Source: a virus
Lineage: Duplodnaviria > Heunggongvirae > Uroviricota > Caudoviricetes
DNA: 11,983 bases
IMG/VR virus record: IMGVR_UViG_2574179916_000005
Location: 1-11,983 of that record
Strand: one strand, 5' to 3'
How positions within the stretch are numbered: position 1 is the stretch's first letter; each line of letters starts with the position of its first letter. Positions 6,001 through 9,000 of the stretch are shown here, piece after piece. The position numbers were made by a program.

Positions 6001-9000
6001 ATAACGTCCCGCCTGTATGGCTGGGAGACAGCCAGCTTGACGAACTGGCAGACCTTAAAATCATCGACGATGGTCGCTATTGTGTCCGGCTGTACAAGGC
6101 AGGCCACATCAAGCCGTCAAATATTAATGCCATCGGGCAAAAGCTGGCGACGGCAGGTGTACGGGATGCGAATTATTACCCCGAGGGAATGCACAGCCAG
6201 AAGCGGGAGGAGTGGCGCGAATATCTGGAGCGTGAGCGCCAGAAAAAAATGTCCGGAGAGATACCGGAGGAAGAAAAAAACGAACAGCGAAAAACCACGC
6301 TACCAATGAGTATTGGATCTGCAGGGTACGACACACAGCTTGATTATGTCGTTAAGGGCGTGATTCCGGCTAATTCGTTGTGCAGCACATACGGCGCGAG
6401 CGGTTCCTATAAATCGTTCCTTGCGTGTTCCTGGGCGTGTCATGTTGCCACTGGTCGCCACTGGGGAGGCCGCAGGGTGGCGCATGGTTCGGTGATGTAT
6501 GTTGTCGGTGAAGGTGGCATTGGTGTCCCCCGTCGTATCAAGGCATGGGAAATCGTTAATGATGAACGGGTGAAAAATCTGTACCTGGTAAACCGCCCGA
6601 TTTTTCCGGCAGCCCCGCTTGATGTTGATGAAATGGTCATCGCTTCCCGCCAGGTTGAACGGGAAACGGGTAAACCGGTACGCATGATTATTCTGGATAC
6701 GCTGGCGCGTTGCTTTGGCGGTAATGATGAAAATGACGCGCGGGATATGGGGGCGTTTATCCGTGGATGTGACGAACTGAAACGCCGCACAGGGGTCACG
6801 GTGCTGGTGGTTCACCATTCCGGCAAGGATGAAACAAAGGGAGCGCGTGGTTCCAGTGCATTTCGTGCATCTCTGGACGCTGAATACCGTATTCGCCGGG
6901 AAGGTGCAGACAGCGAAGCTCTGGTTATCTCCTGCACCAAAATGAAGGACGCGGAGGAACTGAAAGAGGCTGCATATGATTTACGTGTGGTGGAGCTTTT
7001 TACCGACACTGACGGGGAGTTAATCACGTCGCTGGTGGTTGTGGATAAGCCGCGCCCGCCTGTTGAACTGGAACGCATCGAGGAAGCCGGGAACAAGACG
7101 GAGAATCATGCCGCGCTATGGGGATGTATCCGTTCACGCACACAGCGTGGCGATAAATGCACTATTCCGTTGTTGCGCGATGATATGAAAAAGCTGGGGT
7201 ATGAGATGAAACACTTCCGGCGCTGGCTGTACAAGCTGGAAGGTGATGGCGTTATTGCTATTGACGGTGATGACGTGCGCCCACTGTAAAAAGTGGGTAG
7301 TAAAAGTGGGGAGTGTGGGGAATTTAACAAAATTGAAACGTGATTCCCCACTTTCCCACCTGTATATACCCCAAAAAGTGGGGAGTAAAAAACACATTGA
7401 AAAACAGTACATTAGAGTCACAAAAAAAAGAAGTGGGGAGACGTTGGGTAATTTCAAAAAGTGGGGAACAAAAGTGGGGAGTGGTGAGGAATGACCAGAA
7501 AAACCAGAGATAAAACAGCGCCAAAATATCGCGCATTAGACATGACAGAGCACGCCTTAAAGGTGGCAATCAGAACAATAGACCGCCATGCCGGAGAAGG
7601 ATACGCGAAAACACATCCCGAACTGATAAGCGCATTCATGACAGCGGCGGCGGCAAACTTTGCCACGCTGACAGAGCTGGAGATAGCCGAAGCGGAACAG
7701 GTGACAACCATCAACGTTAAAACCGGAGAGCAGACAGCATGACAGCACAGATAGCGGCTTACGGGAGGCTGGCGACTGACCCGCAGTTAAAGACCACCAG
7801 CAAAGGGACACAAATGGCGATGGCGAGTATGGCGGTCCCACTGCCATGCAGTCAGGCAGATGACGGAACGGCGACGATGTGGTTATCCGTCCTGGCGTTT
7901 GGCAGACAGGCCGATGCGCTGGCCAGACACCACAAAGGCGAACTGGTGAGCGTGGCGGGTAACATGCAGGTAAGCCAGTGGACAGGCCAGAACGGGGAAA
8001 CGCGGCAGGGCTGGCAGGTTATCGCAGACAGTGTAATCAGTGCGCGAACGGCGCGACCGGGCGGCAAAAAAGGCCAGCAGGGCCAGGCTACTGACGCACT
8101 GAACAGGGCAAAACAACAGGCGGGGAATGATGATCCGTACGGGGATAACATACCGTTTTAAGCAACGAGTAACAGAAGCCGGAGTAATCCGGCTTTTTTA
8201 TGGGTCCTTCCGGTGTAGTGACCTGCCACGGGGCGGGAGCGTCGCGGGAAAAGGCTGGTTTTTGCATTTTCATGGCGGCGGCAGCATGTGTGATAATTTA
8301 TTGATAATTAAAAATTATTTCTGTTTTCACCTGTACAATATTTTTTTCTCCCTGTCATTAGACCAGTTTGCAATTAATTGAAATATATAAATAAATTTGT
8401 TTTTCACCTGCCAGATGGAGTTGCCTGTGTAAAACGTGTTCAGATGGCGGGATATTTATGCCGGATTCTCTCCGGCATTTTTTGTGTCTGAATCTTATTA
8501 ATCTATTTTTATGATAGAAATGTGTTTATCTACCACATTTATCGATCAATAATGTGCACAGTTTAGTCAGTAAGAGGAAGTTACTGTGAGTTGTATTAAT
8601 GACCTGAACACGGGCGATATCAGGGGTGGTTCCGTTCATCTGGATGCGCAGACCGTTATGCGCCTTAAGCAGTACAGGATCGACCATATAAATCATCATC
8701 CTGACAAACCATTACCAGGTGTGGCGCAGATTGTCAGACATGCCGTAAACACCTGGCTTAATCAGAATGGTTTTGCATCGGTGGGGGAATAATGAATCGC
8801 TGGTACACCATTAAGGCGGCGGATGTGCGTGGAGCGGCGGATATATCTATCTATGAGGAGATTGGCGGCTTCGGTGTTACTGCAAAGCAGTTCGCGGAAG
8901 ACCTGAAAGCCCTTGGCGATGTTTCACATATCAATCTGAGGATCCATTCACCTGGTGGTGATGTGTTTGAAGGCATCGCCATCTATAACCTGCTACGGAA

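What the first reader, a model, noticed from the sequence alone, without database searches (positions are those of the whole stretch)
7739..8161. Element-encoded SSB with a conserved IPF tail
The protein is short (140 aa) but keeps the SSB-like OB core and ends ...DDPYGDNIPF. It could support the element's own replication, or compete for the SSB-interaction network of the host or helper.
Basis: partly seen in the sequence, partly recalled or inferred. Interest (0 to 1): 0.5.

Follow-up and report, generated by a model that had tools for sequence, protein, structure and literature searches.

The report
Satellite-encoded SSB in PICI replication module
The gene is a genuine single-stranded-DNA-binding protein belonging to the replication module of a phage satellite (a PICI) that sits inside its helper prophage's terminase gene; databases already annotate it and the literature lists it, so it is ordinary apart from an unusually conserved linker.

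Summary
Bases 7739-8161 (+) encode a 140-aa protein ending DDPYGDNIPF. It passes Pfam SSB (58.5 bits, cutoff 26) and TIGR00621. It models as an OB fold with a disordered tail, and its best structural matches are bacterial SSBs.

The carrying element is a ~10.5-kb helper-embedded PICI, a published class (Tommasini et al. 2023). It is inserted at about codon 330 of the terL gene of an mEp460-like prophage. The SSB lies in the PICI replication zone, in the order Rep helicase, iteron origin, small ORF, SSB, terminator.

The model satellite EcCICFT073 has an ortholog (69% identity) at the same position. About a third of complete E. coli genomes carry a DNA match to the gene. The exact protein is already in NCBI, named as an SSB.

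The gene is under purifying selection (dN/dS 0.05-0.28), and 108 of 120 homolog clusters end in IPF.

Most likely it is an accessory replication SSB. It would coat satellite ssDNA and recruit host replisome proteins through its tail. This is inferred from position and conservation and has not been tested. The competition idea remains open.

One unexpected feature is an 18-residue linker motif that is more conserved than the OB core. Novelty is low.

The parts
7739..8161 (+). SSB coding sequence (140 aa plus stop)
   Evidence: ORF and translation. Pfam SSB 58.5 bits, TIGR00621 62 bits, PHROG 44. The exact protein is in NCBI named as an SSB.
7739..8050 (+). OB-fold ssDNA-binding core (residues 1-104)
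   Evidence: The AF2 model has pLDDT 80-92 with five long strands and one helix. Foldseek top hits are SsbA, SsbB and other bacterial SSBs. W48, F54 and W81 align with E. coli W54, F60 and W88. C37 aligns with W40 and L49 with H55. dN/dS is 0.05-0.28.
8048..8101 (+). Conserved linker motif TARPGGKKGQQGQATDAL (residues 104-121)
   Evidence: 18 of 18 residues are identical in Leclercia and Citrobacter orthologs, whose OB cores are 49-72% identical. Third-codon identity in the surrounding segment (residues 92-122) is about 0.4-0.5, as in the rest of the gene. The region is low-confidence in AF2, with a weak helix at 117-126.
8129..8158 (+). C-terminal tip DDPYGDNIPF (SSB-Ct-like)
   Evidence: 108 of 120 homolog clusters end in IPF; D136, P139 and F140 are invariant among 30 aligned homologs. 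Distant orthologs end DDDIPF, as in E. coli SSB.
7725..7728 (+). Shine-Dalgarno GGAG, 10 nt upstream of the SSB start codon
   Evidence: Read directly from the sequence.
7491..7742 (+). 83-aa ORF of unknown function (phrog_1231), overlapping the SSB start as ATGA
   Evidence: PHROG 1231 at 1.1e-48. It is conserved upstream of the SSB in E. coli, Shigella and Citrobacter PICIs, and the CFT073 copy is 73% identical. AF2 gives a helical hairpin with pLDDT 68, and no PDB fold matches.
7288..7500 (.). Iteron cluster, the putative satellite origin of replication
   Evidence: Six exact copies and one near-exact copy of AAGTGGGGA lie within 7291-7480. All exact copies in the window are here. The position downstream of rep matches the mapped GN-PICI origins (PMC6092414).
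5874..7289 (+). Rep protein: RepA-like (AAA_25) helicase with an N-terminal domain shared with P4-type PICI primases
   Evidence: Pfam AAA_25 at 6.4e-44. Weak match to RSF1010 RepA, 1g8y. The N-terminal ~140 aa is 61-90% identical to PICI Pri-Rep proteins that have a different C-terminal engine.
8177..8199 (+). Intrinsic-terminator-like hairpin and T-run directly after the SSB stop codon
   Evidence: AGCCGGA-GTAA-TCCGGCT followed by TTTTT. Folding energy is -17.6 kcal/mol with z = -4.8.
8194..8273 (+). Copy of the helper-type cos core, next to the SSB but not part of it
   Evidence: Three direct copies lie at 59-138, 8194-8273 and 10730-10809. The core CACGGGGCGGGAGCG sits at nt 2-16 of the linear mEp460_4F5 genome.
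1762..1774 (.). attL identity block, the left end of the satellite inside the prophage terL gene
   Evidence: Phage terL nt 1-999 align up to window 1774. Phage terL nt 987-2103 resume after the island in relative L001. attR lies beyond the window end.
1933..3171 (+). Satellite tyrosine integrase (context)
   Evidence: Pfam Arm-DNA-bind_3, Phage_int_M and Phage_integrase.

Best explanation
The gene encodes a bona fide bacterial-type SSB that is the accessory ssDNA-binding component of a phage satellite's own replicon.

The satellite is a helper-embedded PICI. When it is induced, its Rep helicase opens the iteron origin at 7288-7500. The satellite SSB is made from the same co-oriented gene block and is translationally coupled to a small upstream ORF. 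It coats the exposed single strands. Its conserved C-terminal tip (...DNIPF) then uses the docking route that the host SSB uses, bringing host replisome proteins such as primase DnaG and the Pol III chi subunit to satellite forks.

The protein is only about 26% identical to the host SSB, so it probably forms its own oligomers. That would give the satellite a private SSB supply while helper and satellite replicate massively.

What is shown: family membership, fold, position in the replication module, conservation and purifying selection.

What is inferred: ssDNA binding, oligomeric state, tail-partner contacts, and the benefit to replication.
For: SSB identity. Three of the four aromatic ssDNA-contact residues of E. 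coli SSB are kept.

Position: the order is rep (5874-7289), iterons (7291-7480), small ORF, SSB, terminator. The rep-then-SSB order recurs in EcCICFT073, O157 SS52, ATCC 25922, a cf-PICI, E. albertii, Citrobacter, Edwardsiella and Scandinavium. It holds whether Rep is a RepA helicase or a P4/D5-type protein.

Literature: Tommasini et al. 2023 place 'Primase, SSB and DUF5906' together with the mapped origins in the PICI replication zone. Their gene profiles read '...DUF4222,Primase,SSB...'.

Selection: dN/dS is 0.05-0.28 over the OB core. The tail ends in IPF in 108 of 120 clusters, and D136, P139 and F140 are invariant among 30 aligned homologs.

Distance from the host protein: 26% identity to E. 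coli SSB, and it reaches no housekeeping-SSB equivalog model.

Specificity to satellites: no sequenced phage in 50,697 records has a relative above about 30% identity, so the clade is not borrowed from current helpers.

Need for host priming: neither Rep allele shows a recognisable primase catalytic domain in Pfam, which leaves room for host primase recruitment. That DnaG and chi bind the SSB C-terminus comes from established E. coli biochemistry and from my own knowledge.
Against: Nothing biochemical was or could be tested.

In EcCICFT073, a clone described as carrying the rep gene and the ori site supports plasmid replication in DH5alpha (PMC6092414). The SSB is therefore probably not required for origin firing and would at most be stimulatory. 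I could not verify the clone's exact borders.

The tip is less acidic than the canonical DDDIPF (GDNIPF). A few natural variants carry I-S-F, which corresponds to the partner-binding-defective E. coli ssb-113 change (the ssb-113 phenotype is from my own knowledge). Tail function may therefore be relaxed or retargeted.

W40 and H55 of E. coli SSB are replaced by Cys and Leu.

The strongly conserved linker motif is not explained by a generic SSB role.
Confidence: 0.6

Rival explanations
1. Interference or competition. The satellite SSB coats helper or host ssDNA, or soaks up SSB-tail-binding proteins. Its divergent linker and tip could then throttle helper or host replication and repair in favour of the satellite.
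For: The tail is kept but altered: GDNIPF rather than DDDIPF. The linker motif is conserved more strongly than the OB core, which suggests a specific partner. The clade is absent from sequenced phages. Satellites commonly encode helper-interference functions (PMC10111431 discussion).
Against: There is no direct evidence. The gene sits in the replication zone, not among the late or interference genes. The same gene is present regardless of helper type: lambda-like, mEp460-like and cf-PICI. Distant orthologs have a fully canonical DDDIPF tip, as expected for normal partner recruitment.
Confidence: 0.12
2. Recombination or concatemer role. Through its tail, the SSB works with a single-strand annealing protein of the helper (Bet or RecT type) or with host recombination proteins. 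This would produce or resolve the multimeric DNA needed for cos packaging.
For: An E. coli model GN-PICI is packaged as phage-length concatemers (PMC10111431 introduction citing PMC6092414). The lambdoid prophage at icd in CFT073, which one search identifies as the helper's site, encodes Bet, Exo and Gam. SSAP activity is tied to the SSB C-terminal tail in published work (title and abstract of PMC13490951). A cos copy lies immediately after the gene.
Against: The argument is purely circumstantial. The adjacent cos copy is absent from lambda-type PICIs that have the same SSB. No recombinase gene is linked to the SSB inside the satellite.
Confidence: 0.1
3. Defence-related role. The satellite SSB protects satellite ssDNA from nucleases, or modulates host immune systems that sense foreign SSB-ssDNA complexes, acting as a decoy or a trigger.
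For: Phage SSBs are known activators of Retron-Eco8 and DARNA (abstracts of PMC13402713 and 10.64898/2026.02.22.705581).
Against: There is no match to any PADLOC defence model. No defence genes neighbour the SSB in the window. The position inside the replication module is conserved.
Confidence: 0.05
4. A decaying passenger gene with no current function.
For: Truncated or fragmentary copies exist, for example the Shigella L016 locus, where only about 24 residues match, and short clusters.
Against: dN/dS is 0.05-0.28 across genera. The reading frame is intact, the start and tail are invariant, and 1082 E. coli genomes carry a place covering at least 80% of the gene.
Confidence: 0.03

Closest known systems
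SSB of the model Gram-negative PICI EcCICFT073 (WP_000126698.1; NC_004431 1384538-1384948)
   Same: It is the ortholog: 69% identity over the full length and the same N-terminus. It has the same position, after pri-rep, the gap where the origin is mapped and a homologous small ORF, and its tail ends in IPF.
   Different: It has a different linker allele (GNRRKTTGTQGNQPP) that lacks the GKKGQQGQATDAL motif. Its tip is GDDIPF. It is followed by a PerC gene rather than a terminator plus cos copy. Its host element lies in the chromosome (roxA-phoQ), not inside a prophage gene. I found no functional data on it in the papers searched.
E. coli chromosomal SSB (P0AGE0; PDB 1eqq, 1eyg)
   Same: Same OB fold. 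Trp54, Phe60 and Trp88 equivalents are kept. The C-terminal region is disordered, and the last three residues are I-P-F preceded by acidic residues.
   Different: Only 26% identity, and 140 aa against 178. W40 becomes C and H55 becomes L. The linker is about 30 residues rather than about 60, is not Gly/Gln/Pro-rich, and contains a conserved motif. The tip is GDNIPF rather than DDDIPF. It scores 26 bits against a cutoff of 260 for the enterobacterial housekeeping model PRK09010.
SSBs of conjugative plasmids (F Ssb) and of phage P1
   Same: They are SSBs encoded by mobile elements, have an SSB-Ct tip and supplement the host protein. That they complement ssb mutants is from my own knowledge.
   Different: By my own knowledge, those are close paralogs of the host SSB, and in plasmids they lie in the leading region. 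This protein is a distant lineage placed next to a satellite origin. In the plasmid collection, relatives above 60% identity occur in only 10 of 53 matching records. The one I inspected (CP088587.1) carries a cf-PICI flanked by chromosomal genes.
SSBs of temperate phages of Gram-positive bacteria (e.g. Staphylococcus PVL/phi-Sa2 type, Streptococcus thermophilus phages)
   Same: They are the nearest matches among 50,697 phage records. They have a similar length (about 130-150 aa) and align over the full length including the tail. SsbA and SsbB of Staphylococcus and Bacillus are the best structural matches.
   Different: Only 27-30% identity, in different hosts. Those genes belong to phage replication or recombination modules, not satellites.

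Membership tests
Bacterial SSB family (Pfam PF00436 / TIGR00621) | Sequence match to the family profile above the curated threshold | tested here: met
   PF00436 scores 58.5 bits against a cutoff of 26. TIGR00621 scores 62 bits against 53.95.
Bacterial SSB family (Pfam PF00436 / TIGR00621) | OB fold (five-stranded barrel with one capping helix) | tested here: met
   The AF2 model has strands 2-11, 16-19, 25-36, 44-54, 69-82 and 88-101, helix 55-62, and pLDDT 80-92. The top 50 Foldseek hits are SSBs, with E down to 1.7e-9 and TM about 0.8.
Bacterial SSB family (Pfam PF00436 / TIGR00621) | Aromatic ssDNA-stacking residues (E. coli W40, W54, F60, W88) | tested here: inconclusive
   W48, F54 and W81 align with W54, F60 and W88 and are invariant. 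W40 aligns with the conserved C37, in a shortened loop. Three of four are met.
Bacterial SSB family (Pfam PF00436 / TIGR00621) | Disordered linker followed by an acidic tip ending in hydrophobic-Pro-Phe (SSB-Ct) | tested here: met
   Residues 104-140 have pLDDT below 50. The tip is DDPYGDNIPF, and 108 of 120 clusters end in IPF. It is less acidic than DDDIPF.
Bacterial SSB family (Pfam PF00436 / TIGR00621) | Homotetramer (or dimer) formation and high-affinity ssDNA binding | not testable with these tools
   Only a monomer model could be made. The H55 equivalent is Leu49. This needs purified protein.
Housekeeping enterobacterial SSB (NCBIfam PRK09010) | Score above the model cutoff | tested here: not met
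   26.4 bits against a cutoff of 260. It is not a copy of the host ssb gene.
Gram-negative PICI (host element) | About 10-20 kb; unidirectional int, alpA and pri/rep genes followed by an iteron origin, then late genes | tested here: met
   int 1933-3171, AlpA-like HTH 3184-3387, Bro-N, DUF4222, Rep 5874-7289, iterons 7291-7480, SSB, ClpP-MCP fusion 8792-10705 and terS-like 10906-11448. The layout matches EcCICFT073 gene for gene in the replication zone.
Helper-embedded PICI (HE-PICI; Tommasini et al. 2023) | [quoted passage not shown] | tested here: met
   The prophage terL is interrupted after nt 999, at window 1774. In relative L001 the rest of terL resumes after the island, with a 13-bp identity block. 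The flanking prophage matches mEp460-like phages. All main satellite genes point the same way as terL. The window itself lacks attR.
Helper-embedded PICI (HE-PICI; Tommasini et al. 2023) | Integrase belongs to the published HE-PICI integrase clade, and the site is one of the 14 listed | not tested
   No integrase phylogeny was made. The A-gene sites I could see named are A_Terminase_1_132, 245 and 246. 'GpA' does not occur in the paper or in the held supplements, one of which is truncated.

The most novel reading that the evidence does not exclude
The 18-residue linker motif TARPGGKKGQQGQATDAL may be a satellite-specific docking site. It is identical across Escherichia, Leclercia and Citrobacter although the OB core has diverged to 49-72% identity and synonymous sites are near saturation. 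The partner could be the satellite Rep, the small co-translated protein, or a helper or host factor. That would make this a 'private hub' SSB that tells satellite forks apart from helper and host forks, or that selectively disables the helper, rather than a generic SSB supplement.
Probability: 0.15. Interest if true: 0.55.

Novelty: already known. Interest (0 to 1): 0.2.

Why it matters
The practical value is small. The work confirms an annotation and places the gene correctly: in the replication zone of a helper-embedded PICI, orthologous to the SSB of the model satellite EcCICFT073.

I found no paper that has tested what PICI SSBs do. A simple deletion or tail-truncation experiment in EcCICFT073 would show whether satellites need a private SSB when they replicate alongside their helper.

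The conserved linker motif and the naturally weakened tips (GDNIPF, GDDISF) could inform the debate on what SSB linkers and tips do. This is a modest lead and does not amount to a discovery.

Tried and rejected
- Rfam scan of the whole window: no family reached its gathering score.
- PADLOC scan of the SSB and seven neighbouring proteins: no hits, so there is no support for a defence-system reading.
- Sigma-70 promoter scan of 7100-8900: none found against 2.4 expected, so there is no evidence for a private promoter. The scan also missed the clear hairpin after the SSB, which I confirmed by folding.
- Structure and fold search of the upstream 83-aa ORF: a helical hairpin with pLDDT 68 and no PDB match, so its role stays unknown.
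- Pfam on the Rep N-terminal 150 aa at E <= 1: nothing, so I cannot say whether the satellite brings its own primase.
- The genome-contig scan with the single protein returned only 10 loci. That was enough for synteny and dN/dS but not for statistics on co-occurrence.
- I looked for a correlation between SSB linker allele and Rep type and found none, with n = 5.
- I considered that the linker conservation reflects recent recombination or a nucleotide-level element. I rejected this because third-codon identity there (about 0.4-0.5) equals that of the rest of the gene.
- Small 'plasmid' records with homologs: CP088587.1 carries a cf-PICI flanked by chromosomal genes (pntB, mdtJ), so it looks like a mislabelled chromosomal piece. 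OW969629.1 is a 10.6-kb plasmid with a large hypothetical protein next to a shorter SSB gene. Neither changes the interpretation.
- Literature searches for a characterised PICI or satellite SSB found none.
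Full report
**1. The observation.** Bases 7739-8161 on the + strand are an open reading frame of 140 codons plus a stop. 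The protein ends ...NDDPYGDNIPF. A GGAG lies 10 nt upstream of the ATG. The ATG overlaps the stop codon of the preceding ORF as ATGA. The first five residues are invariant in 30 aligned homologs, so the start is correct.

The protein passes Pfam SSB (58.5 bits, cutoff 26) and NCBIfam TIGR00621 (62 bits, cutoff 53.95). It matches PHROG 44 'single strand DNA binding protein' and 27 solved SSB sequences at E <= 0.003. An AlphaFold model built from 30 homologs gives a confident OB barrel for residues 1-103 (pLDDT 80-92) and a disordered tail for residues 104-140. Every one of the 50 listed Foldseek matches in the PDB is a bacterial SSB.

**2. What carries it.** The window is not a plain chromosome segment. 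Its left end (59-1774) is the cos region, the small terminase gene (DUF1441 family) and the first 999 nt of the large terminase gene of an mEp460-like lambdoid prophage. At 1762-1774 the terminase gene is broken by an inserted element.

The insert encodes, in order:
- a tyrosine integrase, an AlpA-like HTH protein and a Bro-N protein;
- a reverse-oriented YlcI/YnfO gene and several small ORFs;
- DUF4222 and a Rep helicase, followed by an iteron cluster;
- an 83-aa ORF and the SSB;
- a ClpP-protease/major-capsid fusion and a second DUF1441 terS-like gene.

In the closest complete genome (E. coli B1-56, 95.7% identity) the remainder of the terminase gene resumes after the island, with a 13-bp identity block at the junctions. 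[quoted passage not shown]

**3. Where the SSB sits in that element.** The Rep gene ends at 7289. Between 7291 and 7480 lie six exact copies and one near-exact copy of AAGTGGGGA. These include every exact copy in the window. Iteron sets downstream of pri-rep are the experimentally mapped origin type of Gram-negative PICIs (PMC6092414).

The 83-aa ORF starts at 7491, within the last iteron-like repeat copy (7456-7500). The SSB follows it with an ATGA overlap. A stable hairpin plus T-run (8177-8199; -17.6 kcal/mol, z = -4.8) follows the SSB stop codon. No sigma-70-like promoter was found in 7100-8900. The gene is therefore probably read from upstream, within the co-oriented early and replication transcription; this is an inference.

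**4. The same module elsewhere.** The model satellite EcCICFT073 (between roxA and phoQ in CFT073) has the order DUF4222, Pri-Rep, gap, small ORF, SSB, PerC, capsid, decoration protein. Its SSB is 69% identical to the window's, and its small ORF is 73% identical.

The rep-then-SSB order recurs in these loci:
- O157:H7 SS52, ATCC 25922 and B1-56;
- a capsid-forming PICI;
- E. albertii, Citrobacter, Edwardsiella and Scandinavium.

It holds whether Rep is a RepA/AAA_25 helicase (as in the window and SS52) or a D5/P4-type protein (as in CFT073, ATCC 25922 and B1-56).

Of 5426 complete E. coli genomes, 1819 have a DNA match to the gene, with up to six copies per genome. Tommasini et al. explicitly place 'Primase, SSB and DUF5906' in the PICI replication zone. 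[quoted passage not shown]'. The exact 140-aa sequence is in NCBI (for example EEV7177183.1) under the name single-stranded DNA-binding protein, on 65 contigs. So the gene, its annotation and its membership of the PICI replication module are already known. I found no paper that tests its function.

**5. Anatomy compared with the host SSB.** Identity to E. coli SSB is 26%. Three of the four aromatic ssDNA-contact residues are kept and invariant: W54, F60 and W88 correspond to W48, F54 and W81. W40 aligns with a conserved Cys in a shortened loop. The tetramer-interface residue His55 aligns with Leu.

The C-terminal region has about 37 residues rather than about 65. The last three residues are the canonical I-P-F. 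The tip is less acidic than in E. coli: GDNIPF against DDDIPF. More distant orthologs (Citrobacter, Edwardsiella) have the canonical DDDIPF. A few natural variants end I-S-F, the same change as the partner-binding-defective E. coli allele ssb-113 (the allele's phenotype is from my own knowledge).

No phage among 50,697 records has a relative above about 30% identity. The clade belongs to satellites rather than to their present helpers.

**6. Selection.** Pairwise Nei-Gojobori dN/dS over the OB core is 0.05-0.28, at dS between 0.3 and 3.0. The gene is maintained by selection.

Unexpectedly, the segment TARPGGKKGQQGQATDAL (residues 104-121) is 18 of 18 identical between E. coli, Leclercia and Citrobacter. 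In the same comparisons the OB core is only 49-72% identical. Third-codon identity in that segment is no higher than elsewhere, at about 0.4-0.5. That points to protein-level constraint on part of what is normally the least conserved region of an SSB.

A second linker allele (GNRRKTTGTQGNQPP; CFT073 and SS52) lacks the motif, and the allele does not follow Rep type (n = 5). This feature remains unexplained.

**7. Most likely mechanism (confidence about 0.6).** The protein is an accessory replication SSB. On induction, Rep unwinds the iteron origin. The satellite SSB coats the single strands. Its IPF tip recruits host replisome proteins that normally dock on the host SSB tail. Neither Rep allele shows a recognisable primase catalytic domain, so recruitment of host DnaG is a plausible specific benefit. 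Because the protein is distant from the host SSB, it probably forms its own oligomers and gives the satellite an independent supply during simultaneous helper and satellite replication.

The steps shown are identity, fold, position, conservation and selection. The steps inferred are DNA binding, oligomer state, tail contacts and the benefit.

The main caveat is that a clone described as carrying the EcCICFT073 rep gene and ori site drives plasmid replication in DH5alpha. The SSB is therefore probably stimulatory rather than essential.

**8. Rivals.**
- Interference or competition with helper or host for SSB partners (0.12). It fits the altered tip and the conserved linker but has no direct support.
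- A role with helper annealing proteins in making concatemers for cos packaging (0.10).
- A defence-related role (0.05). There are no PADLOC hits.
- A decaying passenger gene (0.03). This is contradicted by dN/dS.

These rivals are not mutually exclusive with the main reading.

**9. Verdict.** The finding is real and correctly named, but it is ordinary. It is a known, annotated component of a known class of satellites. The interest score is 0.2. Its modest residual value is the conserved linker motif and the fact that nobody appears to have tested what a PICI SSB is for.

Noticed in passing
window 1-1774 and 1762-11983 (attL core 1762-1774): The whole window is a helper-embedded PICI inserted at about codon 330 of a GpA-type (PF05876) large terminase gene of an mEp460-like prophage. 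The A-gene sites I could see named in Tommasini et al. 2023 are in Terminase_1-family genes (positions 132, 245, 246). 'GpA' does not occur in the paper or in its held supplements, so this may be an unlisted integration site.
   Followed up: partly
window 59-138, 8194-8273, 10730-10809: There are three direct copies of an ~80-nt element whose core, CACGGGGCGGGAGCG, lies at the very left end of the linear mEp460_4F5 genome. This is the helper-type cos. One copy is the prophage's own. Two lie inside the satellite, 2536 bp apart, bracketing the ClpP-capsid fusion gene, and the first starts 33 nt after the SSB stop. Lambda-type PICIs have a lambda cosN copy before the terS/rpp-like gene plus an inverted copy further downstream, and none after the SSB. 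The consequences of two cos sites for packaging are unknown.
   Followed up: partly
window 5874-7289 versus L001 13810-15627 and L005 32242-33996: The Rep alleles are modular. The window's 471-aa RepA/AAA_25 helicase and the 584-605-aa D5/P4-type proteins of relatives share only the first ~140 residues (61-90% identity). These residues match no Pfam family. It looks like a common N-terminal domain joined to exchangeable helicase engines.
   Followed up: partly
window 7491-7742: This 83-aa ORF (phrog_1231) overlaps the SSB start as ATGA. It was found only in Escherichia, Shigella and Citrobacter entries. It is predicted to be a two-helix hairpin (pLDDT 68) with no PDB fold match. In Citrobacter and Scandinavium loci a PerC-like ORF occupies this position instead.
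   Followed up: partly
window 8792-10705 and 10906-11448; L001 23356-25326: The satellite carries its own diverged copies of the helper's ClpP-protease/major-capsid fusion (57% identity to the helper's) and of the helper's DUF1441 small terminase (about 68%). It also has the cos region. This is consistent with the 'late zone captured from helpers' idea. Lambda-type PICIs with the same SSB carry gpE-like capsid and gpD-like decoration genes instead.
   Followed up: partly
L003 9001-9411 (E. coli O157:H7 SS52): The orthologous PICI SSB ends GDDISF. This is Pro-to-Ser at the penultimate position, the same change as the E. coli ssb-113 mutation. Three of the 120 homolog clusters end I/L-S-F.
   Followed up: no
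L018 (CP088587.1, recorded as a 32.5-kb E. coli plasmid): The record contains chromosomal genes (pntB, mdtJ) flanking a capsid-forming PICI with the same DUF4222, primase, small ORF, SSB and PerC module. It looks like a mislabelled chromosomal fragment.
   Followed up: no
window 4585-4631: Two tandem 22-nt direct repeats (ACTATTGACGTGGCTGACACCT and ACTAGTATAGTGGCTGACACCT) lie between the reverse-oriented YlcI/YnfO gene and the forward small-ORF block. They may be an operator in the divergent control region.
   Followed up: no
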